Shown: positions 33,019 to 60,793 of the stretch, in pieces
How the letters are laid out: every line of letters starts with the position of its first letter
Position numbering within the stretch: position 1 is the first letter of the stretch
NCBI GenBank assembly: GCA_947168855.1
Contig: CAMVNO010000003.1
Location: 24,574-88,573 of the forward strand
Origin: an uncultured Clostridia bacterium
Lineage (GTDB): Bacteria; Bacillota; Clostridia; Christensenellales; CAG-138
DNA: 64,000 bases
Reading direction: 5' to 3'
Program-made: the position numbers and the translations under genes
The notes under the pieces: generated by a model
Told to the model about the DNA's origin: nothing
Seen by the model: only the letters and a program-made list of their open reading frames with translations
The model's database searches: none

Positions 33019-34508
33019 AAGTGGCCATCTATACTCGGTTCAGTTCAAATAACCAGACAGAAATGAGCACCGCCGCACAGGTCCGCGCATGCCGCGAATT
33101 TGCGGAGCACAGTGGGATGGAGATCTATAAGATCTATTCCGACGAAGCCATTTCCGGAACCGAGGAGAAGACCGACGCCCGCCAGCAGTATCAAAGACTG
33201 CTGGCGGACGCCAAACGTCATCTCTTCGATATGATCCTGATCCATAAATACGATCGCATTGCGCGTTCGCTGGAAGAGCATGTGCGCTTGTCCGCGCTAA
33301 CGAAAAAAGAAAAGATCCCGATCGTCGCGGTTGCGCAGAATTTCGGCGACAGCATCGAAGGCGACTTCGCCAAGCAGATGATGTGGGTCCTTTCGGAGTA
33401 TTACAGCAAGAACCTGTCCAAAGAGACGAAGAAGGGGCACAAAGAGGCGGCACTGAAGGGCCTGCACAACGGCGGTGTTCCTCCGTTCGGATATGACGTG
33501 GTCGACCGGCATTACGTAATCAACGAGACCGAGGCGTACTATGTCCGCAAGATGTTCGAATCGGCGCTGAAACGGGAAAGCCGGACAAAGCTGATCGAAG
33601 AGCTTCGTCGCGCGGGTATCAAGGGTAAGCGGGGGAAGCCCCTGGGTTATCCGTCGATCTACGAGATCCTTCGGAACGAGAAATACACGGGCACATATCT
33701 GTACACGGTCGACGAGGAAGAGAACAGGGTAGACCGTCGGTCCAAGCCGAACGCCATTCGCATCGAGAACGCCTTTCCGGCGATCATCAGTAAAAAGACA
33801 TACAAGGAGGTTCAGAAAATCATGGACGAAAGAAAACAGACGGGAAAGCATTCGGACTATCTGTGCCGCGGGATCGTATACTGCACCTGCGGCGCGAAGA
33901 TGCATGCGTCCGTATGGAAGCTCAAGAACGGGAAAAAGCATGTGTATCGCTGTAAGGCGGATTGCGGCATGAAGCCGATCCCGATGGAACTGGTCGACAA
34001 AGCTGCAACGGATTATCTGGATGAGTTCTTGTCCGCGGAAATGCAGCTGAAGATCGCGGCGTTCCTGCGAAACTATAAGAACCATCAGGCGGACGTGCAG
34101 TCGGGATTCGAGGCGGCGCGGAAAAAGCAGATCGCCGAGAAACAGGCGGCATATGACAATCTGATGAAAAACATGATGTCCGGTGTGCTCAGTGAGGATC
34201 TGATCAAAGAGATCAACGACCGTCTGACCGCGATCAAAGGTGAGATCGAAACGCTGGAGAACGCGGAACCGCCGAAGGATTACACCATGGAGACGATCCT
34301 CGAGTGGCTGGATTCCATCAAAAAGGCGCCGGATCAGCGTGCAATGGAGCTTTTGATTAGGAAAATCACCGTTTCCCGTGAGAATAACAAAACAGACTTC
34401 AAAATCGAATCGAATCTGAAGTCTGTCTGCGTGGAAATGGTTGCGGGGGCAGGACTTGAACCTGCGGCCTCCGGGTTTATGAGTCCATTAAATGGGACAG
34501 CAAAATAA
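33015..34508 (+). CDS. Large serine recombinase
   Basis: N-terminal resolvase domain (VAIYTRFSSNNQ...), a recombinase domain, a zinc-ribbon region (CTCGAKMH...YRCKADC) and a coiled coil. The last ~23 codons are antisense tRNA sequence. Confidence 0.9.
   Translation: MKVAIYTRFSSNNQTEMSTAAQVRACREFAEHSGMEIYKIYSDEAISGTEEKTDARQQYQRLLADAKRHLFDMILIHKYDRIARSLEEHVRLSALTKKEKIPIVAVAQNFGDSIEGDFAKQMMWVLSEYYSKNLSKETKKGHKEAALKGLHNGGVPPFGYDVVDRHYVINETEAYYVRKMFESALKRESRTKLIEELRRAGIKGKRGKPLGYPSIYEILRNEKYTGTYLYTVDEEENRVDRRSKPNAIRIENAFPAIISKKTYKEVQKIMDERKQTGKHSDYLCRGIVYCTCGAKMHASVWKLKNGKKHVYRCKADCGMKPIPMELVDKAATDYLDEFLSAEMQLKIAAFLRNYKNHQADVQSGFEAARKKQIAEKQAAYDNLMKNMMSGVLSEDLIKEINDRLTAIKGEIETLENAEPPKDYTMETILEWLDSIKKAPDQRAMELLIRKITVSRENNKTDFKIESNLKSVCVEMVAGAGLEPAASGFMSPLNGTAK
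34438..34483 (-). repeat. Direct repeat of the tRNA-fMet 3' half (att remnant)
   Basis: 34438-34477 is identical to 60718-60757 (40/40). After one extra T, atgag matches 60758-60762. Confidence 0.9.
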
Positions 34509-40419: not shown

Positions 40420-41276
40420 TGGCAAGGAAAACAATATTTGAATTATACCAGCAGAATAATGACAGGGAGAGGGACTATGCCCGTATTGTTTCGCTTGTGA
40501 GATCTGACAAGTGCGTTGTGAAGCGCAGTGATTCAAACACAGGATGGCCTCTCAAACATATGTTTGAAGTCGGTTTTAGAGAATGGAAACAGCGAGGACG
40601 ATGCATTAGTCTGGAAGACTATTTGCAAACGATCGATTTTGAATCAATAAAGATATGCGCAGGTGCGTTTACAGATAATTTTTTAACCTATATTGAAGTC
40701 ATCTATAACGCTTGGTTCTTTGTTGATAAAGAGATTAAAGATCATTGGACAGTTATACAATGGGGCGTAGACGGGAAAGAGCTTCGAAGACTGATGGACG
40801 AAGTCCTGTCCGAGATGAATCAAAAAGCATATTATGATCCGGAAACGGAACAATGCTTGATCGGAGAGGATTCACCGCAGGTAACGACGGCAGTTGAAGC
40901 AACAGAACCGGAAACGGCATCGCAGATTCTTCACTATAATCATAGGCAGCTTGCAGGGGAGATTGCCAAGAAAAAGTCTATTTTACAAATTCTTGCAAAA
41001 TACCTTGAAGGGCGAGAATCAGAACTAAAGTCGATCAATATGCAGCTGTTTACAGACTTAAATACTGCCTTCAATAATCTTGATATTCGGCACAACAATA
41101 TAGTGCAGCGTGATTCTTCTGATTATAAAGAAAAACTTGCACAGATGACACCGGAGGAATTGGAGAAATGGTATGACGATGTGTATCAGCTAATTCTTTT
41201 GGCGATTCTGGAGATGGACAACGTAGAAAGAAGGAAACGTTTGAGAACCTTAATACAGGACATTAATCAGAAATGA
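40419..41276 (+). CDS. Uncharacterised protein (cassette 1, gene A)
   Basis: 285 aa, AT-rich. The start overlaps the DUF4391 stop (TAATG). No TM segment or recognised catalytic motif. Confidence 0.7.
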   Translation: MARKTIFELYQQNNDRERDYARIVSLVRSDKCVVKRSDSNTGWPLKHMFEVGFREWKQRGRCISLEDYLQTIDFESIKICAGAFTDNFLTYIEVIYNAWFFVDKEIKDHWTVIQWGVDGKELRRLMDEVLSEMNQKAYYDPETEQCLIGEDSPQVTTAVEATEPETASQILHYNHRQLAGEIAKKKSILQILAKYLEGRESELKSINMQLFTDLNTAFNNLDIRHNNIVQRDSSDYKEKLAQMTPEELEKWYDDVYQLILLAILEMDNVERRKRLRTLIQDINQK

Positions 41277-41293
41277 GGTAAGGGGTAAAGCAA

Positions 41294-42409: not shown

Positions 42410-44376
42410 TGGAACGAATGAAGTTTGAGACGCCGGATATGGTGGCGGGGAATGTGGAGAAGATCGCGGCTCTGTTTCCGAACTGCGTTACCGAGGCGGT
42501 GGACGAGGAGAAAAGCACCCCGGAGAAGACGGTTTATAAGAAAGCGATCAACTTTGAACTGCTGCGGCAGATGCTGAGTCGTGACGTCATCGAGGGAGAT
42601 GAAGCATACGAATTCACATGGGTGGGCAAGAAGGCGGCGATCGTGGAAGCCAACGCGCCGATCCGTGCCACGCTGCGCCCGTGCCCGGAGGAGAGCGTCA
42701 ACTGGGACACCACCGAAAACCTCTATATCGAAGGCGACAATCTGCAGGTGCTGAAACTCTTGCAGGAGAGCTATCTCGGCAAAGTCAAAATGATCTATAT
42801 CGATCCGCCGTATAACACTGGGCACGATTTTGTCTATCCAGATTCTTTCATTATGGATAACAAAGAGTACAATGAAGGCACAGGATATTATAATGACGAT
42901 GGAGATGTAAATTTTAATCGAGAAAACAATGTGACTGCAGCGCGGTATCATTCTGACTGGTGTTCCATGCTTTATTCACGTCTACTATTATCCAGAAACT
43001 TACTATCAGATGAAGGTATTCTTTTCCTTTCAATAGACGAGAATGAAGTCACAAATGCTAAAAGGATCTGCGAAGAAGTGTTCGGGGCAGCCAATTGTCT
43101 GGGCGTTATTAGCAATACAAACAATCCGAAAGGGCGTTCTGATGATAATTATATTGCAACGGCACATGAATATATACTTGTTTATGCCAATCAAGAAGCA
43201 AAAGCAAAGTGGTTCGGCTTTGAACCGACGGAAGAAATAATTAAGAGATACAACAAAATTGATATAAACGGAAGAAAATATAGAGAGATCGACTTACGAA
43301 AAACTGGCGAGAATGATTTGAGAGAAGATAGGCCTAACCTGTTTTACTATTTTGCGTATAATCAAGAGACAGGGGACTTTTATCCGTGTAAAGAAGCAAT
43401 TGCTCCCAATGGATACTTTTTGATAAAGCCACAAAGAGAGGATGGCCGCGAAGGAAACTGGAGATGGGGGATAGAAACTGCGAGAGCACAGATCAATGAA
43501 TTGATTCCCAAATATATGCCTACAAGGAAAGTATGGGGCATTATGGAGAAAGACTACCTTGAAGACAGAGATTTTGTGAAGCCGACAAGTTCGTGGACAT
43601 TCAAAGATGTTAATAGTGAAAGAGGGACAGAGGAGTTCATCGATTTGGGATTTGATAAACGTGTTTTTCCAAAACCTAAACCTTTAGGAACGATTGAACG
43701 TTGTATTAAATTGTCTTCTCGGAGCAATAGCGATATTATAATGGACTTCTTTAGCGGTAGTGCGACAACAGCCCATGCGGTTTATAAAATGAATGCTTAT
43801 GATGGCGCTAAAAGACAGTTCATTATGGTTCAGTTGCCTGAGCCGTGTAAGGACAATTCGGTTCCATATTCAAAAGGTTTCAAAACCATCTGCGACATCG
43901 GCAAAGAGCGTATCCGCCGCGCAGGAAAGAAGATTCAGGAGGAGAATCCGCTGACGACGCAGGATTTGGATATCGGGTTTCGCGTACTGAAGCTCGATTC
44001 CACGAACATGAAGGACGTCTATTATTCGCCTGCGGAGATCAGTCAAAACCTGTTGACGGCTTTGGAATCCAACATCAAGGAGGATCGAACCGATCTCGAT
44101 CTGCTGTTCGGCTGCCTGATCGACTGGGGCCTGCCGCTGTCGCTGCCGTACAAGAGTGAAACGATCGACGGCTGCACCGTGCATACCTACAACGACGGCG
44201 ATCTGATCGCCTGCTTCAACGAAAATATCTCGGACAGCGTGATCCAGAAGATCGCCCGCCGCAAGCCTCTGCGCGCCGTCTTCCGCGACGCGAGCTTTGC
44301 TGACAGTCCCTCGAAGATCAACGTCTTCGAGATCTTCAAGCTCCTCGCCCCCGACGCGAGCGTCAAGGTGATATAA
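42409..44376 (+). CDS. mod: Type III-like DNA methyltransferase (Mod; beta-class N6A/N4C)
   Basis: 655 aa. Motif IV IYIDPPYNTG lies before motif I DFFSGSATTAHA, with a long variable central region between them. Confidence 0.88.
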   Translation: MERMKFETPDMVAGNVEKIAALFPNCVTEAVDEEKSTPEKTVYKKAINFELLRQMLSRDVIEGDEAYEFTWVGKKAAIVEANAPIRATLRPCPEESVNWDTTENLYIEGDNLQVLKLLQESYLGKVKMIYIDPPYNTGHDFVYPDSFIMDNKEYNEGTGYYNDDGDVNFNRENNVTAARYHSDWCSMLYSRLLLSRNLLSDEGILFLSIDENEVTNAKRICEEVFGAANCLGVISNTNNPKGRSDDNYIATAHEYILVYANQEAKAKWFGFEPTEEIIKRYNKIDINGRKYREIDLRKTGENDLREDRPNLFYYFAYNQETGDFYPCKEAIAPNGYFLIKPQREDGREGNWRWGIETARAQINELIPKYMPTRKVWGIMEKDYLEDRDFVKPTSSWTFKDVNSERGTEEFIDLGFDKRVFPKPKPLGTIERCIKLSSRSNSDIIMDFFSGSATTAHAVYKMNAYDGAKRQFIMVQLPEPCKDNSVPYSKGFKTICDIGKERIRRAGKKIQEENPLTTQDLDIGFRVLKLDSTNMKDVYYSPAEISQNLLTALESNIKEDRTDLDLLFGCLIDWGLPLSLPYKSETIDGCTVHTYNDGDLIACFNENISDSVIQKIARRKPLRAVFRDASFADSPSKINVFEIFKLLAPDASVKVI

Positions 44377-44388
44377 AGGAGATTCTTC

Positions 44389-45225
44389 ATGAGCAGATTC
44401 TTTTACAGAATACCACGAACTCTACGTAACAGTATTACTTTAGCATTGGCTATTATCACAGTGGCAAGCACTATCACGGGGATCATTGGCTTTTCTATTA
44501 GAGACGTTGACTCCAAACTGACATGGTGGGGCAGCCTTCTAATACTCCTCGGCTTGTATATACTTTTAGTTACAGTCATTTACATCGTATTAAAAGTAGT
44601 ACAAAAACGGCCAATTCGGTTTTCGATTAACGGTAATCAGGGAGAGATACGGAAAGGAAATATCTTTTCAACGGATGGAATGAAGGTGATTCCGTTTAAT
44701 GAGTTCTACGATACGAAGGTAGATGATGTAATAATATCAAAGAAATCATTAAATGGGGTGTTCATTTCCGGATATGTTAAGGATATCGAACATCTGAAGG
44801 AACGAATTATTGATGCAGAAAATGAGCCAAGCAGTTTGAAAAGTGAAGACATAAATGGTAGGAAGAGATATCCGCTTGGCAGAATAATACCGTATGATGA
44901 GTATCTGCTGCTTGCATTTTCACACTTTAACGCGAACAATGAAGCTCATATTGATATAGCGGATTACGAAAGATGTCTATTTCAAATGTGGAGAGAGATT
45001 CGTAGAACGTATTCAGGAAAGGACGTAGTTCTTCCGTTAATAGGTTCTGGCATAACAACGTTTGATGGAATATTGAAAAAGGACAATAACGATCTGCTGA
45101 AATGCATTTTATGCACGTTAAGGGCAAGCGGCGTTCAGCTTAACAGTAAAATAACAATTATTCTTACAGATGAGGTTTTTAATTCAATCAATCAAGACAG
45201 TATCAGAGAGGAGTTAAAACAATGA
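44389..45225 (+). CDS. 2-TM protein with C-terminal macro-like domain (Thoeris type II ThsA-like effector)
   Basis: 278 aa. Two N-terminal TM helices (ITLALAIITVASTITGIIGFSI; WWGSLLILLGLYILLVTVIYIVL). The C-terminal domain has a macro-like VVLPLIGSGITTF loop. Confidence 0.55.
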   Translation: MSRFFYRIPRTLRNSITLALAIITVASTITGIIGFSIRDVDSKLTWWGSLLILLGLYILLVTVIYIVLKVVQKRPIRFSINGNQGEIRKGNIFSTDGMKVIPFNEFYDTKVDDVIISKKSLNGVFISGYVKDIEHLKERIIDAENEPSSLKSEDINGRKRYPLGRIIPYDEYLLLAFSHFNANNEAHIDIADYERCLFQMWREIRRTYSGKDVVLPLIGSGITTFDGILKKDNNDLLKCILCTLRASGVQLNSKITIILTDEVFNSINQDSIREELKQ

Positions 45226-45734
45226 CATATTATAGAACTAGAACATATATTGCAGCAGATTGGACAGGCGATTATGATGCGGTTGAACAGCTGCGGAAAT
45301 GGAATGATAGCAATTATTGGAGCCTGAGTTTTACGGATGCCCATGATCTTAAGCAAGCGCGCGATGGCAGCTTGAATTGTACTATAAAAAATTCGTTGCG
45401 CGACAGATTAAACGCATCGAAAACGTTTGTTTTGATCGTTGGTGATCAAACAAAAAACTTGCGGAGTGGTAGCTGTGTCTACTGCCCTAACTATAATAAT
45501 TATTCGTGTGATAACCGTAATATCGTTGATTTTAGGAGTTACATTGAATTTGAGTGTGATAAGGCTATAAGTGATGGTTTGAAGATAGTTGTCCTTTATA
45601 ACTCAACTCGTGTAGATAAAACAAAATGCCCGGAGGTTATTCAGAAGTATGGGATTCATGCCGCAATGAAAGAGTACAAATATGGTCTTGTATACTGGAA
45701 TTATGCGGCTGTTAGAGATGCAATCATGGATTGA
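45222..45734 (+). CDS. TIR-like (DUF1863/ThsB-like) protein
   Basis: 170 aa. The blocks TYIAADW..., SKTFVLIVGDQT and IEFECDKAISDGLKIVVLYN line up with my recollection of Bacillus cereus ThsB. ATGA overlap with the upstream gene. Confidence 0.6.
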   Translation: MTYYRTRTYIAADWTGDYDAVEQLRKWNDSNYWSLSFTDAHDLKQARDGSLNCTIKNSLRDRLNASKTFVLIVGDQTKNLRSGSCVYCPNYNNYSCDNRNIVDFRSYIEFECDKAISDGLKIVVLYNSTRVDKTKCPEVIQKYGIHAAMKEYKYGLVYWNYAAVRDAIMD

Positions 45735-45802
45735 TTTAAATAGGACAATGCAACTGCTGATGCAGTTAACCTTACATGGTTCCAGTGCTGAGGAGAATTA
45801 TC

Positions 45803-46564
45803 ATGGAGAAAAGTAGCGATACCGCGCTTTATAAGTACATGCCTTATAAGTTCTTTTCCAAAATGTTGGAGGAGAGCGCGCTGACGCTTGTCGATCCTTT
45901 TCAATGCTGGGAAGATACATATGAAGGCGCTTTTTACCGTGCCATAAAAGATGAAGAAACTTTCAATTATCTTGTTTCAATTACCCGACATAAGACTGAA
46001 AGCGAGAGCGTAATCGCATCTTTTAGGCGCTTGCTATTAACTGTCAGCAGCGTTAAAGCGCAGAGCTGGACTAAAAACCGGGATGATCTCTTAATGTGGG
46101 CTGCGTACTCGAATAATAAAAGGTCTATTATGGTTCAAACGAGTATAGATAAATTGAATACCGTTTGCAAGGATAATTATCCCGCGAGCATTGATGCACT
46201 CTCTCTGCCATGGATACATGACGTTGTTTATGATTATGATAGAGAGTCTTCCATACAGTCAGATATAATACGAGCTTTCGATGCTATCGCTTTGTCAATG
46301 AATCCATATGAGCCTTTCTTACATAAGCGTACCGAACTTTCATTCGAACAGGAAGTAAGATTACTCGCTGCAGATTCAAATCAATCTAATAGAAAGACAG
46401 CAAAACTAAGGATTAATGATATCAAGGCATTCATTGATGGGGTGATGGTTCACCCTGGAGCAACAAAGCAATTTGCAGGGAAAGTCTGTAACGAATGTGA
46501 GAAATACGGGATTACATATCTTGGGAAATCACAAAAGTACGATGTTTCTTTTTTAACGGTGTAA
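45803..46564 (+). CDS. DUF2971-family protein
   Basis: LYKYMPYKFF..., LMWAAYSNNKRSIMV and FEQEVRLL motifs. ATG 45803 follows gaggag. Confidence 0.65.
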   Translation: MEKSSDTALYKYMPYKFFSKMLEESALTLVDPFQCWEDTYEGAFYRAIKDEETFNYLVSITRHKTESESVIASFRRLLLTVSSVKAQSWTKNRDDLLMWAAYSNNKRSIMVQTSIDKLNTVCKDNYPASIDALSLPWIHDVVYDYDRESSIQSDIIRAFDAIALSMNPYEPFLHKRTELSFEQEVRLLAADSNQSNRKTAKLRINDIKAFIDGVMVHPGATKQFAGKVCNECEKYGITYLGKSQKYDVSFLTV

Positions 46565-46578
46565 CCGGAGGGACAGGA

Positions 46579-49500
46579 ATGAAACTTCAATTCAAACATC
46601 AAAAATTCCAGGCGGATGCGGCGAAGGCGGTTGTGGACGTCTTTGCAGGGCAGCCGTATCTGACGCAATCGTATCTGATGGATCGCGGCAGAGGGTATCA
46701 GCGGTTGGATGAGGACGAGCGATTTACCGGTTGGCGCAATGAGCGGATCGTGCCGGAGCTGACGGATTCCATGATTCTGGATCACATTCGCAAGATCCAG
46801 CGTGTGAATCAGATCGAGCCGTCCGATCGGTTGGAGGGGCGCTATAACCTGACGATTGAGATGGAAACCGGCGTCGGCAAAACGTATACCTATATCAAGA
46901 CGATGTACGAGCTGAACAAGCAATACGGCTGGAGCAAGTTCATCGTCGTCGTGCCGAGCATTGCGATCCGCGAGGGCGTCTATAAGTCGTTCCAGATCAC
47001 GCAGGAGCATTTTGCTGAGGAATACGGGAAGAAGATCCGGTTCTTCATCTATAACTCCGCGCAGCTCACGGAGATCGATCGGTTTGCTTCTGACAATGCG
47101 ATCAACGTCATGATCATCAATTCGCAGGCGTTCAATGCGAAGGGAAAAGATGCGCGGCGCATCTATATGAAGCTCGACGAGTTCCGCAGCCGTCGCCCGA
47201 TCGACATCATTGCCAAGACGAATCCGATCCTGATCATCGACGAACCGCAGTCCGTGGAAGGCGCGGCGACAAAGGAGCGGTTGAAGGAGTTTTGCCCGCT
47301 GTTCACCCTGCGCTATTCCGCGACGCATAAGTCGGACAGTATCTATAACATGATCTATCGGCTCGATGCGATGGAGGCGTACAATAAGCGGCTGGTAAAG
47401 AAGATCGCCGTGAAGGGCATTACTGAAACGGGATCGACGGCGACGGAGGGCTATGTATACCTGCAGAGCATCAATCTGTCGAAAGCCGATCCGACGGCGA
47501 CGCTGCAGTTTGACGTCAAAGGCGCATCAGGCGTGCGTAAAAAGACGCAGATCGTCAAGATCGGAACGAATCTCTATGATCTGTCCGGCGGGCTGGAGGA
47601 GTATAAGAACAATTTCACCGTCAGCTTTATCGATGGGCGTGACGATTCCGTTTCCTTCCTGAACGGCGTGAAAATCTACGCTGGCGACGTCATCGGCAGC
47701 GTCAGCGAGGAGCAGATGCGCCGGATCCAGATCCGTGAAACGATCCTTTCGCATATTGATCGGGAACGGCAGTTGTTCCACCGGGGGATCAAGGTGCTGT
47801 CGCTGTTCTTCATCGACGAGGTTGCGCATTACAAGCAGTACGACGCCGCAGGGCAGCCGTACAACGGCATCTATGCCGATATGTTCGAGGAAGAATATGA
47901 CGATGTCATGCATTCGCTGCAGATCGCTGCAGGCGAGGAGGATTATGTCATATACCTGCAGTCGATCAAAGCAAAGGATACGCACGCCGGGTACTTCTCG
48001 ATCGACAAGAAGGGACACATGACGGACAGTAAGATCGGAGACAAGAAGGAAAAGACATCGGACGATATCGACGCTTACGATCTGATCATGAAGAATAAGG
48101 AACTGTTGCTGGACCGGGATCCGAAGAAATCGCCGGTACGGTTTATCTTTTCGCACTCGGCGCTGCGCGAGGGCTGGGACAATCCAAATGTATTCCAGAT
48201 CTGCACACTAAAGCAGAGCAGCAGTGAGGTGCGCAAGCGTCAGGAAGTCGGACGTGGACTGCGTCTGTGCGTCAATCAGGACGGCGAGCGCCAGGACATC
48301 AATGTGCTTGGCAACGATGTGCAGAACGTCAACGTGCTGACGGTTATCGCATCCGAAAGCTATGAGAGCTTCGCAAGAGAACTGCAGACAGAGCTTGCAG
48401 AGGCGGTTGCGAATCGCCCGCGTGCCGTTACGCCGGAGCTGTTTACAAATCGTGTAATCACCGATGCAAACGGTAATTCGGAGGTGATCACGCAGAACAC
48501 TGCTTTGGAGATCTGGATGAACCTGCGTATGGATGGGTACATCGACAGGGACAATGCTCTGACGGACAAGTTCTATACCGATCGTGCAAATGGGAGCGTG
48601 CATGTTATCGAGGAGGTTGCCGCTTACGGCGATTCGATCATACAGATCCTTGATTCCGTCTACAATGCCGCGGCGATGCAGCCGGAGAATGCCCGCAGCA
48701 ACAACGTGGAGCTTTCCGTCAATCGTGACAAGCTGGAGATGGCGGAGTTCAAGGCGCTCTGGAAGCGCATCAACAAGAAATCGTATTATGTCGTTGACTT
48801 CGACACGGACGAGCTGGTGCGTAATTCCGTACAGGCATTGAACACTAAACTGCGGATTCCGAAGATCTTCTTCCGCGTGACGATGGGGACGATGGATTCA
48901 ATTTCGTCGAGGGAATCACTGCAGGCAGGGGAGGCGTTTACAAAGACGTCCTCTTCCGTGCATGACGAGCATACCAGGATCGCTGCTAACCGCAGCGTGA
49001 AGTACGATCTGATTGGAAAGCTCGTGGACGCAACAGGGCTCACGAGAAAGGCGATCGTCGAGATCTTAACCGGCATCGAGAAGGATGTCTTTGATCAGTT
49101 CGCCAATAATCCGGAGGAGTTCATTCTGAAGGCGGCGGAGCTGATCAACGATCAGAAAGCGACGGCGATCATTCAGCACATCACTTACGATTTGCTGGAC
49201 GAAGAGTACAAGACGGATATCTTCACGGACGCCACGATCAAGGGCAAACTCGGCGTCAATGCGATCCGAGCGAACAAGCATTTGTATGATCATGTCGTCT
49301 ATGATTCGACGGTAGAAAAGAAACTGGCGCAGAATCTGGAGGCCAGCACAGATGTCGCTGTATATGTGAAGCTGCCGAACGGATTCTACATCTCCACGCC
49401 GGTAGGCAAGTACAATCCGGACTGGGCGATCGCGTTCTACGAGGATCACGTCAAGCACATCTACTTTGTAGCGGAGACGAAGGGCGATCTGGCATCGCTT

Positions 49501-49638
49501 GAACTGACGCATACGTCCTCGCTGGAGAAAGCAAAGATTGACTGTGCACGTCAGCACTTCAAGGCGATCAGCAACGGCGAAGTGGTTTACGACGTCATCG
49601 ACGGATATGACGCATTGTTGCAAAAGGTGATGCGGTAA
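46579..49638 (+). CDS. res: Type III restriction enzyme Res subunit (COG3587-like helicase-nuclease)
   Basis: 1019 aa. METGVGKTYTY, ILIIDEPQ, LREGWDNPNVF and a C-terminal PD-(D/E)xK (NPDWAI...VAETKG). Confidence 0.9.
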   Translation: MKLQFKHQKFQADAAKAVVDVFAGQPYLTQSYLMDRGRGYQRLDEDERFTGWRNERIVPELTDSMILDHIRKIQRVNQIEPSDRLEGRYNLTIEMETGVGKTYTYIKTMYELNKQYGWSKFIVVVPSIAIREGVYKSFQITQEHFAEEYGKKIRFFIYNSAQLTEIDRFASDNAINVMIINSQAFNAKGKDARRIYMKLDEFRSRRPIDIIAKTNPILIIDEPQSVEGAATKERLKEFCPLFTLRYSATHKSDSIYNMIYRLDAMEAYNKRLVKKIAVKGITETGSTATEGYVYLQSINLSKADPTATLQFDVKGASGVRKKTQIVKIGTNLYDLSGGLEEYKNNFTVSFIDGRDDSVSFLNGVKIYAGDVIGSVSEEQMRRIQIRETILSHIDRERQLFHRGIKVLSLFFIDEVAHYKQYDAAGQPYNGIYADMFEEEYDDVMHSLQIAAGEEDYVIYLQSIKAKDTHAGYFSIDKKGHMTDSKIGDKKEKTSDDIDAYDLIMKNKELLLDRDPKKSPVRFIFSHSALREGWDNPNVFQICTLKQSSSEVRKRQEVGRGLRLCVNQDGERQDINVLGNDVQNVNVLTVIASESYESFARELQTELAEAVANRPRAVTPELFTNRVITDANGNSEVITQNTALEIWMNLRMDGYIDRDNALTDKFYTDRANGSVHVIEEVAAYGDSIIQILDSVYNAAAMQPENARSNNVELSVNRDKLEMAEFKALWKRINKKSYYVVDFDTDELVRNSVQALNTKLRIPKIFFRVTMGTMDSISSRESLQAGEAFTKTSSSVHDEHTRIAANRSVKYDLIGKLVDATGLTRKAIVEILTGIEKDVFDQFANNPEEFILKAAELINDQKATAIIQHITYDLLDEEYKTDIFTDATIKGKLGVNAIRANKHLYDHVVYDSTVEKKLAQNLEASTDVAVYVKLPNGFYISTPVGKYNPDWAIAFYEDHVKHIYFVAETKGDLASLELTHTSSLEKAKIDCARQHFKAISNGEVVYDVIDGYDALLQKVMR

Positions 49639-49662
49639 ACATATTCAAAAGGTGTAAGATAT

Positions 49663-49695
49663 ATAAGCAATGTGCAAAATATGCACGTTGCTTAT
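49663..49695 (+). terminator. Hairpin downstream of res
   Basis: ataagcaatgtgca / aaata / tgcacgttgcttat, a 14-bp stem with one G-T pair. No strong T-run follows. Confidence 0.4.
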
Positions 49696-49814
49696 TCGCA
49701 TATACCTGTTAAGTATGATACTACTAGTGCCAGAATGCACATACTGACACGGGCACCAACTATTGCAGATTCTACAACAGTTCAAACAAAACGCAGCCGC
49801 AGAAAGAAAAGGTT

Positions 49815-50116
49815 GGATTTATCTAAATAATTAAAATCTTGCGTTAATTAGTAAAATCGGCATTGAAATTAGACAAATCTGATGAAAAGTACTCAAATCA
49901 TTATCTGAATTAGTGAAATTTAGGCAAATCGTTGCCTAAATTAGTTAAATCTGATGAAAATTACTCAAATCACCGCCTGATTTAGATAAATCTTATGGCA
50001 TTTAAGCAAATCATTTGCCTAAATTAGTGAAATTTGATTAAATTACGCAAATCATTTGCCTAAATTAGGCAAATACTTATCTAAATTAGTCAAATTCTTT
50101 TGAAATTAGACAAGAC
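49815..50116. repeat. Phased iteron-like array: about 14 copies of A(A/T)TTAGNNAAAT(C/T) at 19-22 bp spacing
   Basis: The hexamer aattag or a variant starts at 49846, 49867, 49887, 49908, 49918, 49939, 49959, 49980, 50000, 50022, 50041, 50063, 50084 and 50104. Embedded short palindromes include atttgcct-aaatt-aggcaaat. Confidence 0.85.
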
Positions 50117-50150
50117 GGATGGAGCTCCGATGGCTCATCCGTCTTTTGTT
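50112..50150 (+). terminator. Hairpin with T-run closing the iteron region
   Basis: aagacggatggagc / tccgatg / gctcatccgtctt, followed by ttgtttcgg. Confidence 0.6.
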
Positions 50151-50290
50151 TCGGTCAAATGTACGCGAAGATCGCGGAACGTATCTTCTATCGGTGCAAC
50201 GCGGCCGGCGGTGACATCGGCTTCACTTTCTGCAAGAACTTGGAGCAATTCCAGCTCGGATTGATTTTGCTTTTTCATTGGTTTGTCTTT

Positions 50291-51844
50291 TCAATTCTTA
50301 TTCTTCCGGTTCGGGAAGGAAGATTCGAGCCACGCTTCGTATTCCTCGACCGTGATCTTGCCGTCGGCGCATTCGTCACGTTTTGTGAGCGCCTGATACT
50401 TCCATTTCTTGAAATCGGCTTCCTTAATCTGCCGCACCTTTACACGCGCAGAGTAGCGCTTATAGTATTTGCTGTATAGCGCGTATTCCTTGTTTTCCGC
50501 TGCCTTCGCTCTATAGTTCTCGATTGCTGCAAGTTCCTGACAGGTGCGCGTACTGCCCTCTGCAATCCGATCACAGTAGTTTGTGTCGTAATTGCCTTTC
50601 ATAATGAAATACCTGCCACAACGCTTGCATTTGCGGAAGTGGATGTTTTCTTCCAGCATCTTCGTGAACTCCAATTCCAGCATCTCCGCCGCGGTGGAGA
50701 CATCGTATTGAATGCTCATAAAGGACGGACGGCGGATCATCATGGTAAGGTGTCCAACGTCCAATCCGTATTCTTCTGCAAATGCTTTTTCCGCTTCGGT
50801 TTCGTTTGAGGAAAACGCCTTGATGATTCTCTTGATGTATTCCTCCTGTTCCATTCCGAACGGCATACGCCTCGGGCTGCCCATGTGTTCGTGCGAGATC
50901 ATCAATTCTTCGCGACGAGTATAAGAATCGGACAGATCGTGTATATCCCGATACAAATGGTATCGTTCGCTCGGATAGAGGTTTCCGAGTACTTCGGGAT
51001 GGAAATTTTCATCATAAACGAATTCAAGAAGCTCCTGGTATTCCTTTTGCAGCGTTACCAGATAATCCGCATAGCGTCCCATCATCCTATCTGTATCTGC
51101 GTCGTATCCAACAAAACACGGCGGGAACAGCGCGGAGTAGAGGGAAGCATACAGCGCGTCGCCGAGATCGTCGCAAGTAGAGCAGAACTGAAAGTAATGC
51201 TCTACGATCTCCTGCGTCCGGTTATAAACCTTTTCCGGTTTTTCTTCCTCGATAGGTTCTGCCCCCGGAAGGTCAACATCATCCTTTTCTCTGATTCTGC
51301 GGAACAAACGATAGATAGCGTATCTTTCCTTCATCGGTGTAATGAGATCGGAATACACGAAATCCAAGATTCCTTCGCCATATCGAATGGTCACACACGT
51401 TCCGCTGAGCACATCGTTCATTGGCTGACGGATCGGCTCCTCGGCATCGTAATCAATGTTCCCGTTTTCATCTGTCGGATAGTCGGAAAAATCGGTTGGA
51501 TCGCCATGCGACGATATGCGCTCAATTTCGTATTTCTTTTGTAGCAGGGCATACTGCTCCCGATTCTTTTTTACTCTCTTTGCAGCAAATTCCTTATCTT
51601 CCGGATAATCTTTCAGCTTGACACCACGCCGTTTCTCTTGTTCGTCTTGGTACTCGTCAATAAAGCTGTCCATCGAATAATCTTCATTGAGATCATCGAC
51701 ATAAAAGCGGATCGTTCGCTTTTCTGCATCGAAACGGACCTTGTTATGGAAGTACCCTAAGATAATATCCTTCCGGTGCTCCCGCTTCATACGGTACCGG
51801 TCATACGCTGTTAATTCATATTCGGAGTAGTCTTTTTCTTTCAT
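50291..51844 (-). CDS. Hypothetical protein with C-terminal zinc ribbon (mobile-element accessory)
   Basis: About 517 aa from ATG 51844 (gaggac RBS). The CKRCGRYFIMKG...YCDR...TCQ region parallels the tail of 27449-28348. Confidence 0.7.
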   Translation of the reverse strand: MKEKDYSEYELTAYDRYRMKREHRKDIILGYFHNKVRFDAEKRTIRFYVDDLNEDYSMDSFIDEYQDEQEKRRGVKLKDYPEDKEFAAKRVKKNREQYALLQKKYEIERISSHGDPTDFSDYPTDENGNIDYDAEEPIRQPMNDVLSGTCVTIRYGEGILDFVYSDLITPMKERYAIYRLFRRIREKDDVDLPGAEPIEEEKPEKVYNRTQEIVEHYFQFCSTCDDLGDALYASLYSALFPPCFVGYDADTDRMMGRYADYLVTLQKEYQELLEFVYDENFHPEVLGNLYPSERYHLYRDIHDLSDSYTRREELMISHEHMGSPRRMPFGMEQEEYIKRIIKAFSSNETEAEKAFAEEYGLDVGHLTMMIRRPSFMSIQYDVSTAAEMLELEFTKMLEENIHFRKCKRCGRYFIMKGNYDTNYCDRIAEGSTRTCQELAAIENYRAKAAENKEYALYSKYYKRYSARVKVRQIKEADFKKWKYQALTKRDECADGKITVEEYEAWLESSFPNRKNKN

Positions 51845-52346
51845 AATGTCCTCACTGATTTGGAGAATACGGATCCTCACAATTTTGGAGTATTAACATC
51901 ACCACAAACAACATGATACAAAACTATTGTATAAATGTCAAGAACCCAATATAATTCTGCGTGGGAAATGATGATTGAGAATGATCATCATTTTTTGTTT
52001 TGTAAGCGCTTTGAAAACAGAATAACGAAAGAAAAAACGAACGATTTATGAACAGCTCCATCAGAACTGCAAAAAATGACTGTTTTTTCGCATTGTGTAT
52101 GGGAGGGCTAAAAATGCGACGAAAAAGCGAGTTATTTAAGAAACTGTGAACATTTTGCTTTTTCCTGCAAAAAATCGCTGTTTTTCCGCAATGGGTATGG
52201 AGGGACTGTTTTTGAATGCGCCCGGCAAGAGAGAACGCCGGTGCAGATACACCGTTTCCCCTGATCAAGGAAACGAGACCGTTGCCGCTTCGGGACGCCG
52301 AGGTGATAAGCACACATTACACGGATTACGAAAGGAAACCAAACGT

Positions 52347-52556
52347 ATGAACAAACCATACACAAATACAAACGAGTTGCCCTATACGCTCAGCGTAGAG
52401 GAGATGGCGGCCTTCTTAGGAATTTCCAGAGTCGGCGCTTACAATCTGAGCCACAGCAAGGGGTTCCCGTCGAAGCGGATCGGAAAGCGCATCCTGATCC
52501 CGCGAGATGAATTCCTTGCCTGGCTGAAGGAACTGCCGGAGGTGAGCAATGCATGA
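52347..52556 (+). CDS. xis: Excisionase-family HTH DNA-binding protein
   Basis: 69 aa. LSVEEMAAFLGISRVGAYNL...ILIPRDEFLAWL is the MerR-like Xis pattern. Confidence 0.75.
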   Translation: MNKPYTNTNELPYTLSVEEMAAFLGISRVGAYNLSHSKGFPSKRIGKRILIPRDEFLAWLKELPEVSNA

Positions 52557-53482
52557 GTACAAAACAGGAAAAAGAAACCATCGTTGTAATCCGCATTGAT
52601 CAGATTCAGCCGTTTCCGAATCACCCGTTTCAGGTGAACGAAGACGAAGCGATGGAACGACTGAAAGAAAGCATCGCAGAGAACGGCGTGCTCATGCCTG
52701 CGATTGTACGGCAAATGTCGGACGGATCGTTCCAGATGGTCTCCGGACACCGGCGCATGGCGGCGTGCAAAGCGCTCGGGATTGAAAAGATGCCTGCGAT
52801 CGTGCGGGATATGGACGACGATCTTGCTACCGTCACTATGGTGGACGCAAACAGCCAGCGGGAACAGATCCTCCCAAGCGAAAAGGCGTATGCGTATAAG
52901 ATGCGGCATGACGCATTGAAGCACATGCGCGCTGCGGGCACCGTTCCGGCAAACGGGCGCACGACGGAACAGGTCGGCAGGGAGAACAGCAAGAGCTTTA
53001 TGACGATTACCCGCTATATTCGAATGACGCGGCTGTTGCCCGATCTGCTGAAACTGGTGGACAGCAAGAAGCTGAAGGAAACGGCGGCGGAGCGGATTTC
53101 ATACCTCTCTGAATCGGAACAGCAGATTGTGCTGTCCATCATGCAGTCGGAATTGTGCGTACCGAACAAGGCACAGGCGAAACGCTTGAAGCAGATGCAC
53201 GACGACAGGGAACTGACGGAGGACGCAGTGAGAACTCTGCTCACGGACAGCAAGGGAAAAGCGGAGAAAGTGTCCATCCCAACGGAAACGCTCGAACGGT
53301 TCTTTACCGAAGACGAGACGCCGGCGCAGATGACGGAAACGATCGTTGCGACGATGGAGCAATGGGAAAAGCTGAAGGCGTACTTTCAAAAGGATGTTTC
53401 CCCGGCGCGCATGACGGAAATGATCGTGAAAATGCTCGAGAACGAAAAACGCCGTCAGCGCAGCAAAGCACAGGAGCGATAA
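52553..53482 (+). CDS. ParB-like N-terminal domain protein
   Basis: GVLMPAIVRQ...MVSGHRRMAACKALG...ILPSEKAYAY. Paralogous to 31890-32780. Confidence 0.85.
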   Translation: MSTKQEKETIVVIRIDQIQPFPNHPFQVNEDEAMERLKESIAENGVLMPAIVRQMSDGSFQMVSGHRRMAACKALGIEKMPAIVRDMDDDLATVTMVDANSQREQILPSEKAYAYKMRHDALKHMRAAGTVPANGRTTEQVGRENSKSFMTITRYIRMTRLLPDLLKLVDSKKLKETAAERISYLSESEQQIVLSIMQSELCVPNKAQAKRLKQMHDDRELTEDAVRTLLTDSKGKAEKVSIPTETLERFFTEDETPAQMTETIVATMEQWEKLKAYFQKDVSPARMTEMIVKMLENEKRRQRSKAQER

Positions 53483-53716
53483 TCGACCGCAGGGCAGAGC
53501 GGCAATCCTGAAAGGCGGACATGTGCTTGGGCGACCGTGTAACACCGTGTTACACGATGGAATTCCCTAAGGCAGCACAAGGTTTACGGTGCGGGGAGGC
53601 AACTCCCCGCGCCGATCCCGGACACGGAAATGATAGCATTCTTTCCGAAAATGATAGCTTTTTTGAGGTTGAAACCGGGACGGCAGATTTGATCCCGTTA
53701 GGGATTAACAAGCATG

Positions 53717-53757
53717 GGATTGTGGTAGCACAATCCGTCCGTAAGGGAGCGCCCTTA
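53717..53757 (+). promoter_or_regulatory. Candidate oriT (inverted repeat plus nic-like sequence)
   Basis: Inverted repeat ggattgtg/gtag/cacaatcc (53717-53736), followed 4 nt later by GTAAGGGAGCGCCCTTA. This resembles the MOBQ nic region TAAGTGCGCCCT of RSF1010 as I recall it. A further perfect palindrome cgtgtaacac-c-gtgttacacg lies at 53536-53556. Confidence 0.4.
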
Positions 53758-57250: not shown

Positions 57251-57335
57251 CGAGTGGTAGTACACTGAAGACTTGAAAACCAAGAACAAAGTATAGTATA
57301 ATCAAAAAGAAATCAATAGTGGTGGGAGGGTGCTT

Positions 57336-57638
57336 ATGTATAACAATGTAGGTAAAAAGATCATGGTATTAGCACAAATTCTTGGTTGGGTTGGCTTAAT
57401 AGCCGGTATAATTACTTGGATTGTGCTATTGATAAATGATGAAAAACTCGGAGGTTGGCTCTCGCTTGTAGGAGGCGTTTTGTCCTTTGTATTTTCATGG
57501 TTTATGTATGGCTTTGGTCAACTCGTGCAAGATGTACACGAAGGTAAAATGAACGCTCCTATTGGTTCAAATGGAGAAAAGAAAACAGAACAAAATGTGC
57601 CGCAGACAGTAGTTTCCGACGAATTGCCGGACCTTTGA
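57336..57638 (+). CDS. Small membrane protein
   Basis: About 100 aa with two or three TM helices. AT-rich. Followed 9 nt later by the next gene. Confidence 0.6.
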   Translation: MYNNVGKKIMVLAQILGWVGLIAGIITWIVLLINDEKLGGWLSLVGGVLSFVFSWFMYGFGQLVQDVHEGKMNAPIGSNGEKKTEQNVPQTVVSDELPDL

Positions 57639-57647
57639 GGAAAGAAT

Positions 57648-59615: not shown

Positions 59616-59631
59616 AGAATAATGGAGTTGA

Positions 59632-60717: not shown

Positions 60718-60793
60718 TGGTTGCGGGGGCAGGACTTGAACCTGCGGCCTCCGGGTTATGAGCCCGACGAGCTACCGACTGCTCCACCCCGCG
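60718..60793 (-). tRNA. Initiator tRNA-Met (anticodon CAT), CCA encoded
   Basis: The reverse complement reads CGCGGGGTGGAGCAGTCGGTAGCTCGTCGGGCTCATAACCCGGAGGCCGCAGGTTCAAGTCCTGCCCCCGCAACCA. It has a C1-A72 mismatch and three G-C pairs closing the anticodon stem, both initiator hallmarks. Confidence 0.9.

What the first reader, a model, noticed from the sequence alone, without database searches (positions are those of the whole stretch)
49815..50116. Fourteen phased ~21-bp iteron-like repeats at the cargo/backbone boundary
Seen: the motif A(A/T)TTAGNNAAAT(C/T) recurs about 14 times in one orientation. Successive hexamer starts are 19-22 bp apart (mostly 20-21, i.e. two helical turns), with one extra half-spaced copy. 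Short palindromes are interspersed (aggcaa-atcg-ttgcct; atttgcct-aaatt-aggcaaat). The region is very AT-rich and non-coding, and it ends in a hairpin with a T-run at 50112-50150. Established knowledge: arrays of 17-22-bp direct repeats on one helical face are typical of plasmid replication-origin iterons and of centromere-like partition sites. Inference: this is a high-occupancy protein-binding platform (origin, partition site or recombinase/Xis arm-site cluster) for segment B. The cognate binder could be one of the ParB-like proteins or the 517-aa zinc-ribbon protein encoded next to it.
Basis: partly seen in the sequence, partly recalled or inferred. Interest (0 to 1): 0.65.

Follow-up and report, generated by a model that had tools for sequence, protein, structure and literature searches.

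The report
Orphaned, amplified Schlafen-gene operator repeats
The AT-rich block is a real array of about 15 evenly phased copies of a 13-bp protein-binding-type motif. It is not an origin or partition site: it matches the repeat array found in front of bacterial Schlafen (pSlfn-HisKinase-HTH) defence genes, and here it has lost its gene and been amplified inside a mobilizable island.

Summary
Positions 49816-50117 hold 14-15 same-strand copies of AAATTAGNCAAATC, with spacings alternating 20 and 21 bp (a 41-bp super-unit). Four or five inverted copies sit at half phase. The array ends in a conserved intrinsic terminator.

- The array lies inside a 26.3-kb tRNA-Met integrative mobilizable element, 15 kb and 10.6 kb from the att sites, so it is not an arm-site cluster.
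- No Rep or ParA gene was found among the ORFs scanned against Pfam.
- DUF6076 is excluded as the binder. None of 80 DUF6076 loci carries the array, and relatives carry the array without DUF6076.
- The ParB-like protein has a better candidate site, a clade-specific parS-like palindrome (53537-53555).

The same motif, with the same phasing, lies directly upstream of pSlfn-HisKinase-HTH genes in five independent contexts. One of these is a sister element whose array is homologous to this one. In the three closer contexts the last repeat fills the spacer of a TTGAAA-17-TA(A/G)AAT promoter.

In this window the gene and the -10 box are gone and a terminator takes their place. The motif and phasing have nevertheless survived about 23% backbone divergence.

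Best reading: an orphaned, duplicated operator-type array bound in trans by an HTH protein. The binder and the present function are untested.

The parts
49816..50117 (+). Repeat array: 15 + strand copies of AAATTAGNCAAATC, spaced alternately 20 and 21 bp, plus 4-5 inverted copies at half phase. The conserved left edge is AAATCTTGCG (49836-49845). The last copy (50105-50117) runs into the terminator stem.
   Evidence: conserved in L182, L245, L247, L254
49848..49991 (+). Two copies of a 72-bp segment (3.5 units each; 75% identical), showing that the array grew by segmental duplication. The 10-bp half-spaced copy at 49908-49917 is absent from L182.
   Evidence: (D3)
50002..50074 (+). 41-bp super-units containing imperfect palindromes TTA(A/C)GCAAAT-C-ATTTGCCTAA, and the 21-bp palindrome ATTTGCCTAAATTAGGCAAAT (50053-50073).
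   Evidence: D1
49740..49815 (+). About 75 bp of non-coding leader left of the array. It is conserved (about 73%) with L245 but not with other relatives. A 2-nt indel difference argues against coding.
   Evidence: (L245 6096-6259 = window 49756-49920), read by eye
50113..50150 (+). Intrinsic terminator: a 12/11-nt stem with one bulge, followed by TTTTGTTT. It is conserved in L182, L245 and L247, with compensatory upper-stem changes (GAGC/GCTC to GCCC/GGGC). It occupies the place of the -10 box and pSlfn gene seen in L254.
50135..50278 (-). 47-aa ORF with no family match. Its stop codon lies inside the terminator stem. It is present in L182 and L245 and absent from L247 and L254, so it is not required for the array.
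50291..51880 (-). DUF6076 zinc-ribbon protein, which converges on the array. It is context only and is not the cognate binder.
53537..53555 (.). Perfect 19-bp parS-like palindrome GTGTAACACCGTGTTACAC, 55 bp after the ParB-like gene. It is the likelier cognate site of the ParB/Noc-like protein (52553-53482).
34438..34477 (.). attL core: a 40-nt perfect copy of the tRNA-Met 3' part. With 60718-60757 it bounds the 26.3-kb element that contains the array.
   Evidence: (D4); the L245 attL arm is 95% identical
60718..60757 (.). attR core inside the intact tRNA-Met gene (60718-60793, - strand).

Best explanation
Shown:
- The block is a helically phased array, about one site every two turns, all on one face. 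The motif is bipartite, TTAG-NN-AAAT, inside AAATTAGNCAAATC.
- It belongs to a family of tRNA-Met integrative mobilizable elements of gut Clostridia. The backbone is HTH_17 excisionase-like, ParB/Noc-like, NikA, MOB relaxase, TnpV and tyrosine integrase. The array sits next to a slot that holds variable defence cargo.
- It is homologous to the array in sister element L254.
- The same motif and phasing recur immediately upstream of SLFN_AlbA_2 + HATPase_c_4 + Fic-like_C(wHTH) genes. This is the 'pSlfn-HisKinase-HTH' class of prokaryotic Schlafens.
- In the three closer gene-linked contexts the last repeat fills the 17-nt spacer of a TTGAAA-N17-TA(A/G)AAT promoter, and the gene heads a variable defence cassette.

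Inferred:
- The repeats are operators. An HTH protein binds them cooperatively along one face of the DNA. The best candidate is the C-terminal winged HTH of the pSlfn-HisKinase-HTH protein itself, acting as an autoregulator.
- In this window the -10 box and the gene have been replaced by a terminator hairpin and an inverted 47-aa/DUF6076 module.
- The array was then enlarged from about 6-7 to about 15 units by 72-bp and 41-bp duplications.
- It therefore has no promoter to control. It can only act in trans, as a high-capacity binding sink or roadblock at the cargo/backbone boundary, fed by a pSlfn-type or other HTH protein encoded elsewhere in the host.
For: Reality and phasing.

Element limits and position.

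Orthologous arrays in relatives:
- L182: 92.5% identity over window 52836-49835, with homology stopping at the array's left edge.
- L245 and L247: ParB 76-78% identical, 6-7 units, the same terminal hairpin. L247 has neither DUF6076 nor the 47-aa ORF.
- L254: 78% identity over 103 bp, with the shared left edge AAATCTTGCG.

Link to pSlfn-HisKinase-HTH genes, five independent contexts:
- L254: sites at -133, -114, -93, -72 and -51. Promoter TTGAAA-17-TAAAAT with TG at 209-237.
- L253 and L266-274: gene 91-95% identical, lying behind a TnpV gene. The -10 hexamer in L266 is TAGAAT (read by eye).
- L275-283: gene 76.5% identical, different neighbours, followed by TIR-WD40 genes. Promoter at 4950-4978.
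- L229: gene 51% identical, array inverted, ATTTCACTAA x3.
- Acetoanaerobium noterae NZ_CP154629.1: gene 52% identical, ATTTNNNTAA repeats spaced 21, 20, 20 bp.

Domain class and defence role of pSlfns: PMC13056530; Pfam labels.

Constraint on the array:
- Window versus L182: core 4.8%, spacer 7.8% and NN 27% divergent (Fisher p = 0.002, core versus NN). The neighbouring 50118-50300 is 13.7% divergent.
- Among distant arrays: core 78%, spacer 61% and NN 47% identical.
- The arrays still align at 72-80%, and their 20/21 phasing is kept, although the backbone is about 77% identical. Most of the non-coding DNA upstream of HTH_17 gave no blastn match between window and L245/L247.

No pSlfn gene in window, L182, L245 or L247.
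Against: - No binding experiment exists for any member. The pSlfn HTH as binder rests only on conserved gene-motif linkage, in five contexts, two of which have the array inverted.
- A conserved host regulator, or an element protein (the HTH_17 excisionase-like protein or TnpV), could be the binder instead.
- The window shows no pSlfn-HisKinase-HTH gene, and the rest of the host genome is unknown. A trans-acting supply is therefore assumed.
- Sister elements L249 and L255 lack the array, so it is dispensable for the element.
- L253's gene-linked array is partly decayed.
- The divergence statistics rest on small counts and on alignments anchored by the repeats themselves.
- Gene conversion among units could mimic constraint.
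- Distant homologues (24-29% identical) in other phyla sit inside operons such as BREX, without their own upstream region.
Confidence: 0.55

Rival explanations
1. Functionless relic. The array is the left-over upstream region of a deleted pSlfn gene. It was expanded by replication slippage or unequal crossing-over and survives only because too little time has passed.
For: - The gene and -10 box are gone.
- Copy number varies from 5 to 15 between relatives, and segmental duplications are visible.
- The array is absent from L249 and L255 and decayed in L253.
- No promoter is predicted in the window array apart from one weak, non-conserved - strand match.
Against: - All four orphan arrays share the same hairpin junction. 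The loss therefore predates about 23% backbone divergence, yet they keep the motif and the exact 20/21 phasing.
- Core positions diverge far less than NN.
- The array is less diverged from L182 (about 8%) than the adjacent 47-aa ORF region (13.7%).
Confidence: 0.2
2. Operator or regulatory platform for an element-encoded small DNA-binding protein, either the excisionase-family HTH_17 protein (52216-52556) or TnpV. Such proteins typically coat phased direct repeats. It would couple cargo expression, or read-through at the boundary, to the excision/transfer state.
For: - HTH_17/TIGR01764 and TnpV are present in every array-bearing element.
- The array always has the same orientation relative to the backbone.
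- It is established knowledge, from memory, that excisionase-type proteins such as P2 Cox, 186 Apl and lambda Xis bind phased direct repeats.
Against: - The same motif arrays occur upstream of pSlfn genes where no such backbone is visible within 5 kb (L275 group) or 3 kb (Acetoanaerobium L312).
- L249 and L255 encode the same proteins but lack the array.
Confidence: 0.1
3. Centromere-like or parS-like loading array for the element's ParB/Noc-like CTPase, or for a helper element's ParB. It would stabilise the excised circle or silence neighbouring genes.
For: - The ParB-like protein is a Spo0J/Noc relative with a GxRR motif and an HTH.
- Multi-copy arrays such as sopC are known centromeres (from memory).
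- One integrative mobilizable element, SGI1, is reported to hijack a helper's parABS system (PMC10954446, title and abstract).
Against: - No ParA was found among the ORFs scanned against Pfam.
- The array is absent from sisters that encode ParB.
- A perfect parS-like palindrome lies next to parB (53537-53555). In the 55-63% ParB clade it is replaced by GCGGGACACGGTGTCCCGC, which is the expected behaviour of the true cognate site.
- The array units are mostly direct repeats, not dyads.
- The array is linked to pSlfn genes elsewhere.
Confidence: 0.07
4. Iteron-type replication origin or copy-control (handcuffing) locus for the excised element.
For: The 19-22-bp phasing, AT richness (30% GC) and multiple same-orientation copies match iteron arrays (iteron knowledge from memory).
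Against: - No Rep-family initiator was found among the ORFs of 100 aa or more scanned from 9.0 to 60.4 kb, which include the whole element.
- No related sequence was found in 72,556 plasmids or 50,697 phages.
- The array's position relative to the backbone varies and it is sometimes absent.
- In relatives it overlaps a promoter.
Confidence: 0.04
5. RNA-level element, either the 3' UTR of the cargo operon or an sRNA ending at the terminator, or a single-strand origin for the transferred strand.
For: - A + strand terminator follows the array in all four orphan loci.
- The region folds better than shuffled sequence on both strands, z about -6.
Against: - Fold stability is equal on both strands and comes from the short palindromes plus the terminator.
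- In L254, L266 and L275 the promoter lies at the downstream end of the array, so the array is not transcribed with the gene.
- No conserved promoter lies upstream, because the cargo differs in every relative.
- There is no Rfam match.
Confidence: 0.03

Closest known systems
Upstream repeat arrays of pSlfn-HisKinase-HTH genes (prokaryotic Schlafens; PMC13056530 describes the proteins, not the repeats)
   Same: Same motif (TTAGNNAAAT), same 20-21-bp phasing, same mix of direct copies and a few inverted copies. There is direct sequence homology to the array of sister element L254.
   Different: Here there is no downstream pSlfn gene and no -10 box. A terminator hairpin takes their place. Copy number is about 15 instead of 4-7.
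Plasmid and phage iterons (P1 incC/incA, F, RK2, R6K, lambda ori) - from memory
   Same: Arrays of 17-22-bp direct repeats about two helical turns apart. AT-rich surroundings. Copy number varies. Extra arrays can act by titration or handcuffing.
   Different: No Rep initiator was found. The array is not linked to a replicon and has no plasmid or phage relatives. In relatives it is promoter-linked.
Centromere arrays (F sopC 12 x 43 bp, pSK41 and R1 parC) and ParB-parS - from memory
   Same: Tandem binding units, including a 41-bp super-unit with internal dyads. A ParB-family gene lies 2.4 kb away.
   Different: No ParA was found. Presence of the array does not track ParB. A separate parS-like palindrome is the better ParB site.
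Phased operator arrays of excisionase or Cox-type regulators and autoregulated defence-island regulators (P2 Cox, 186 Apl; BrxR/CapW-type) - from memory
   Same: Several direct repeats on one helical face overlap a promoter that heads a defence operon. Autoregulation by a wHTH protein is the inferred logic.
   Different: The protein here would be a Schlafen nuclease-ATPase-wHTH fusion, not a dedicated small regulator. The window copy is detached from any promoter.
SGI1 use of the IncC helper's parABS system (PMC10954446; title and abstract only)
   Same: Precedent for a mobilizable island depending on a trans-encoded DNA-binding system.
   Different: Different proteins, sites and bacteria. No helper is identified here.

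Membership tests
Iteron replication origin (oriV) | Several 17-22-bp direct repeats, helically phased, in AT-rich DNA | tested here: met
   15 copies at 19-22 bp spacing, 30% GC
Iteron replication origin (oriV) | A cognate Rep initiator gene next to the repeats, or at least in the same element | tested here: not met
   Pfam scans of most ORFs of 100 aa or more from 9.0 to 60.4 kb show no Rep family. The neighbours are type III Res, a 47-aa ORF and DUF6076.
Iteron replication origin (oriV) | Conserved as part of the replicon in related elements | tested here: not met
   Absent from L249 and L255. Lies on the far side of a 7.4-kb cargo in L254. No plasmid or phage matches.
Iteron replication origin (oriV) | Supports autonomous replication | not testable with these tools
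   Needs a replication assay.
ParB centromere (parS / sopC-like) | A ParB-family binder encoded by the element | tested here: met
   52553-53482: ParB_N + HTH_ParB, Spo0J/Noc-like
ParB centromere (parS / sopC-like) | A partner ParA-type NTPase | tested here: not met
   None found among the scanned ORFs of the element.
ParB centromere (parS / sopC-like) | The site co-occurs and co-varies with its ParB across relatives | tested here: not met
   The array is absent from ParB-encoding L249 and L255. The palindromes GTGTAACACNGTGTTACAC and GCGGGACACGGTGTCCCGC follow the ParB clades instead.
Integrase/excisionase arm-type site cluster | Lies within a few hundred bp of the att core | tested here: not met
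   The att cores are at 34438-34477 and 60718-60757. The array is 15.3 kb and 10.6 kb away. The arms carry GTCGTCA repeats.
Promoter-operator array of pSlfn-HisKinase-HTH genes | TTAGNNAAAT-type motif repeated at 20-21 bp | tested here: met
Promoter-operator array of pSlfn-HisKinase-HTH genes | Sequence homology to a gene-linked array | tested here: met
   Window 50011-50113 matches L254 120-222 at 78%. Shared left edge AAATCTTGCG and unit order.
Promoter-operator array of pSlfn-HisKinase-HTH genes | The last repeat lies in the spacer of a sigma-70-type promoter, followed by the pSlfn gene | tested here: not met
   The window keeps the TTGAAA, but a hairpin replaces the -10 box. No pSlfn homologue is found in the window. 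The array is therefore an orphaned derivative, not a working member.
Promoter-operator array of pSlfn-HisKinase-HTH genes | Bound by the protein's HTH, or by another defined regulator | not testable with these tools
   Needs EMSA, footprinting or ChIP.
Intrinsic (Rho-independent) terminator (for 50113-50150) | GC-rich hairpin followed by a U-run, conserved in relatives | tested here: met
   compensatory stem changes in L182
Origin of transfer (oriT) | Inverted repeat and nic region next to the relaxase and accessory genes | tested here: not met
   A conserved inverted repeat, GGGATTGTGGTAGCACAATCC, lies at 53716-53737 upstream of NikA and the relaxase in 8 relatives. The array is 3.6 kb away.

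The most novel reading that the evidence does not exclude
The amplified, promoter-less array is a DNA decoy. By offering about 20 high-affinity operator copies, the mobilizable element would titrate the HTH of resident pSlfn-HisKinase-HTH defence proteins, or their regulator. That would rewire or blunt a Schlafen-type defence, or the expression of pSlfn-led defence cassettes, in the host it enters. A second possible role is as portable homology for swapping pSlfn-led defence cassettes into the element's cargo slot.
Probability: 0.08. Interest if true: 0.8.

Novelty: new variant of a known kind. Interest (0 to 1): 0.45.

Why it matters
Prokaryotic Schlafens were shown only recently to be anti-phage effectors, and the HisKinase-HTH fusions are one of their largest classes (PMC13056530). 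The paper passages I searched mention native promoters but not these repeats.

This analysis links a precise, phased cis-motif (TTAGNNAAAT every 20-21 bp, overlapping a TTGAAA-17-TA(A/G)AAT promoter) to these genes in Clostridia. That gives a directly testable hypothesis for the role of the HTH domain.

It also shows that such arrays can be detached, amplified and kept at the cargo boundary of mobilizable defence islands.

Finally, it removes a tempting mis-annotation of the block as an origin or centromere. It also points to the likelier parS, oriT and att sites of this element family.

Tried and rejected
- blastn of 49640-50290 against plasmids and phages: no match.
- Two-site and promoter-type patterns in IMG/VR: only chance hits or simple satellites.
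- ParB and pSlfn protein scans of IMG/VR: distant or no relatives, and no arrays.
- Three-site pattern in metagenomes: 120 or more hits. Nearly all were unrelated tandem repeats. The TTAGCTAAAT arrays of the JGI24158/24159 contigs lie in ORF-poor, probably eukaryotic DNA. Only L182 and L229 were relevant.
- DUF6076 as binder: rejected.
- The 47-aa ORF: no family match, not on record, and absent from L247 and L254.
- Exact-protein look-up of Res: nothing found.
- Coding hypothesis (21 bp = 7 codons; a leader ORF at 49672-49830): rejected, because of stop codons, variable spacing and a 2-nt indel relative to L245.
- Tn7/Mu-type transposon end: no second, inverted cluster anywhere in the window.
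- Folding as ssDNA or RNA: stable but strand-symmetric, so it does not discriminate.
- Rfam: only the tRNA.
- Distant pSlfn homologues on plasmids of other phyla sit inside operons such as BREX, so they say nothing about upstream arrays.
- No protein in the window resembles the pSlfn C-terminal wHTH.
- Literature search for DUF6076: nothing.
Full report
**1. The observation**

- AWTTAGNNAAATY occurs 9 times exactly in the 64-kb window, always inside 49816-50096, against 0.2 expected.
- With one mismatch, 17 of 18 matches are in the array.
- A weight matrix built from the clear copies maps 15 + strand sites between 49825 and 50103. Start-to-start spacings are 20,21,20,21,10,21,20,21,20,22,19,22,21,20.
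- Minus-strand copies sit at half phase at 49815, 49928 (weak), 50011, 50030 and 50052.
- Random placement of 15 sites in 302 bp never gave 13 of 14 spacings within 19-22 bp in 200,000 trials.
- TRF sees a 41-bp period. The repeat finder sees a 72-bp duplication and 41-bp units. The array therefore grew by segmental duplication of a two-unit (20+21 bp) block.
- GC content is 30%. No ORF of 50 aa or more lies inside.
- The hairpin with T-run at 50113-50150 is real.

**2. Where it sits**

Pfam scans give the following gene order.
- To the left of the array: a defence cargo of a PDC-S01 ATPase, an SNF2 helicase with DUF4391, a methylase, Thoeris ThsA/ThsB, DUF2971/PDC-S31 and a type III Res.
- Then the array and its terminator.
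- On the opposite strand: a 47-aa ORF and a DUF6076 zinc-ribbon protein.
- Then a mobilization backbone: an excisionase-family HTH_17 protein, a ParB/Noc-like protein, NikA, a MOB relaxase, TnpV and a tyrosine integrase.

A 40-nt perfect direct repeat of the 3' part of tRNA-Met lies at 34438-34477 and 60718-60757 (tRNA). It bounds a 26.3-kb integrated mobilizable element.

The att arms carry their own GTCGTCA repeats. The array is internal, 15.3 kb and 10.6 kb from the att cores. It is therefore not an arm-site cluster.

**3. Testing the proposed binders**

*DUF6076.* Eighty genome loci encoding DUF6076 homologues (39-87% identity) contain no copy of the array and no comparable tandem array. 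In the two closest, homology to the window stops exactly at the ends of the gene. Conversely, relatives L247 and L254 have the array without DUF6076. DUF6076 is excluded as the binder.

*ParB-like protein.* It is a Spo0J/Noc relative with the GxRR motif.
- A perfect 19-bp parS-like palindrome, GTGTAACACCGTGTTACAC, lies 55 bp after its gene at 53537-53555.
- The same palindrome is present in the close relatives.
- In the clade with 55-63% ParB identity a different perfect palindrome, GCGGGACACGGTGTCCCGC, takes its place. One copy lies inside parB and one lies upstream of HTH_17.
- That co-variation is what a cognate ParB site should show.
- The AT-rich array, in contrast, is absent from the ParB-encoding sisters L249 and L255.
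- No ParA and no Rep gene was found among the scanned ORFs.
- A conserved inverted repeat at 53716-53737 upstream of NikA and the relaxase is the likely oriT.

**4. Relatives that carry the array**

A three-site DNA pattern in metagenomes returned mostly unrelated satellites. It also returned L182, which is 92.5% identical to window 52836-49835. Homology ends at the left edge of the array and a different cargo lies beyond it. L182 lacks the 10-bp 'half-spaced' copy.

Contexts of ParB homologues gave further sister elements with the same backbone.
- L245 and L247 (backbone about 77% identical) carry 6-7 units with strict 20/21 spacing and the same terminal hairpin.
- L245 also shares the attL arm.
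- The cargo to the left of the array differs in every element.
- L249 and L255 have no array.
- In L254 (and, decayed, in L253) a homologous array lies on the other side of a 7.4-kb cargo. The match is 78% identity over 103 bp, with the same left edge AAATCTTGCG.

**5. What the array is attached to in L254**

Its last repeat fills the 17-nt spacer of a TTGAAA-17-TAAAAT promoter with an extended TG. That promoter is 26 nt upstream of a 478-aa SLFN_AlbA_2 + HATPase_c_4 + Fic-like_C gene.

This architecture is the 'pSlfn-HisKinase-HTH' class of prokaryotic Schlafens. It accounts for 19.2% of pSlfns in PMC13056530, where tested pSlfns are phage-activated tRNases.

Close homologues are very numerous. 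Every context I could fetch shows the same motif at the same phasing immediately upstream.
- L266-L274: gene 91% identical, lying behind a TnpV gene, followed by type I R-M genes.
- L275-L283: gene 76.5% identical, different neighbours, followed by TIR-WD40 genes. Promoter at 4950-4978.
- L229: gene 51% identical, array inverted, ATTTCACTAA x3.
- Acetoanaerobium noterae DSL2: gene 52% identical, ATTTNNNTAA repeats spaced 21, 20, 20 bp.

The motif array is therefore a conserved cis-element of this gene family. The gene typically heads a variable defence cassette.

The window, L182, L245 and L247 contain no such gene. At the point where L254 continues into the -10 box, they continue into a terminator hairpin.

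**6. Is the orphan array still constrained?**

- Between window and L182, the eight core positions (TTAG, AAAT) differ at 4.8%, spacers at 7.8% and the central NN at 27% (p = 0.002 for core versus NN). The adjacent 50118-50300 differs at 13.7%.
- Among the more distant arrays, pairwise identity is 78% for core, 61% for spacer and 47% for NN.
- The four orphan arrays share one junction, so the gene loss predates their roughly 23% divergence. They nevertheless keep motif and phasing.
- Most of the non-coding DNA upstream of HTH_17 gave no blastn match between window and L245/L247.

This argues for continued selection. The counts are small, however, and the alignments are anchored on the repeats.

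**7. Mechanism**

*Shown:* phasing on one helical face; a bipartite motif with a free central dinucleotide; homology to promoter-overlapping arrays; loss of promoter and gene here; and amplification.

*Inferred:*
- The repeats are operators bound cooperatively by an HTH protein. The most economical candidate is the wHTH of the pSlfn-HisKinase-HTH protein itself, acting as an autoregulator.
- In this window the array can only bind such a protein in trans. It would act as a sink or a roadblock in front of the terminator that separates defence cargo from backbone.

*Rivals:* a functionless relic; binding by the element's HTH_17 or TnpV protein; a ParB platform; an iteron origin; and an RNA or single-strand origin. 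Each is listed with its evidence in the rival-explanations section. Folding is strand-symmetric and does not help to choose between them.

**8. Comparison with known systems and novelty**

The array looks like iterons and centromere arrays, but it fails their defining tests: no Rep or ParA was found, and it does not co-occur with the replicon or with ParB. It passes the motif and homology tests for the pSlfn upstream arrays. It fails the 'promoter plus gene' test, so I file it as an orphaned derivative.

The passages of PMC13056530 returned by my term search do not describe the pSlfn-linked repeats themselves. I did not read the whole paper. I rate the finding a new variant of a known kind (operator or iteron-like binding arrays), with moderate interest.

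The most novel reading still open is a decoy array that titrates Schlafen-type defence proteins. I give it about 8%.

Noticed in passing
window 34438-34477 and 60718-60757; arms 34603-34631 and 60620-60652: A 40-nt perfect direct repeat of the tRNA-Met 3' part bounds a 26.3-kb integrative mobilizable element. Both arms carry GTCGTCA-type repeats (GTGTCGTCAAA x3 near attR), probably integrase arm sites. The attL arm is 95% identical in L245.
   Followed up: partly
window 53537-53555; L249/L253/L254 position 9377, L255 1941, L263 1011: A perfect parS-like palindrome, GTGTAACACCGTGTTACAC, lies just after the ParB-like gene. In the clade with 55-63% ParB identity it is replaced by GCGGGACACGGTGTCCCGC, with one copy inside parB and, in most of these relatives, one upstream of HTH_17. 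L247 has both types. This looks like ParB/site co-variation.
   Followed up: partly
window 53716-53737: The inverted repeat GGGATTGTGGTAGCACAATCC, followed by GTCCGTAAGGGAGCGCCCTTAAAC, is almost invariant in 8 related elements upstream of NikA and the relaxase. It is probably the oriT.
   Followed up: partly
window 52067-52109 and 52165-52207; L247 8200-8600: A 43-nt direct repeat lies upstream of the HTH_17 gene, whose real start is probably the ATG at 52216. Relatives carry up to four promoter-like units of about 100 bp (TTGCAA...TACAGT). These could be tandem promoters or operators for the backbone operon.
   Followed up: no
L247 7560-7720; L249 7540-7660; L253 7330-7450; L254 7790-7920; L255 230-350: Relatives without DUF6076 carry a conserved, apparently structured non-coding stretch ending in a terminator-like hairpin, preceded by a good promoter (TTGCTT...TATAAT). 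It has no Rfam match. It could be an element-specific sRNA or a single-strand origin. It gave no blastn match in the window.
   Followed up: partly
window 30551-34508: A second mobilizable unit (MOB relaxase, a second ParB-like protein and a large serine recombinase) abuts attL. The recombinase ORF runs into the tRNA-derived repeat. A similar unit lies next to the sister element in L249, on the other side and inverted.
   Followed up: no
window 34874-49638 and 57330-60402: The cargo is a stack of defence genes: PDC-S01 ATPase (AAA_14/DUF4143), SNF2 helicase with DUF4391, N6/N4 methylase, Thoeris ThsA-macro/ThsB-TIR, DUF2971 (PDC-S31) twice, type III Res, and a TPR-DUF6273 protein. Sister elements carry Kiwa, type I R-M, nSTAND/RhuM or AbiEii in the same slot.
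   Followed up: partly
L001 7610-7720 and L002 7720-7800: Downstream of the closest DUF6076 genes, which lack the array, both loci share a conserved hairpin (CTTCAGCGCC...GGCGCTGAAG) flanked by TAATCC/GGATTA. Its role is unknown.
   Followed up: no
L004, L007, L015, L016, L263, L264 and others: Many metagenome assemblies break within a few hundred bp after DUF6076 or just left of HTH_17. This suggests that repeats or population variability at this junction disrupt assembly.
   Followed up: no
L313 (Azotobacter salinestris plasmid NZ_CP045303.1): A distant AlbA_2-HATPase_c_4-HTH homologue (27% identical) sits between brxC and pglX inside a BREX-1 operon. This family is therefore defence-associated well beyond Clostridia.
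   Followed up: no
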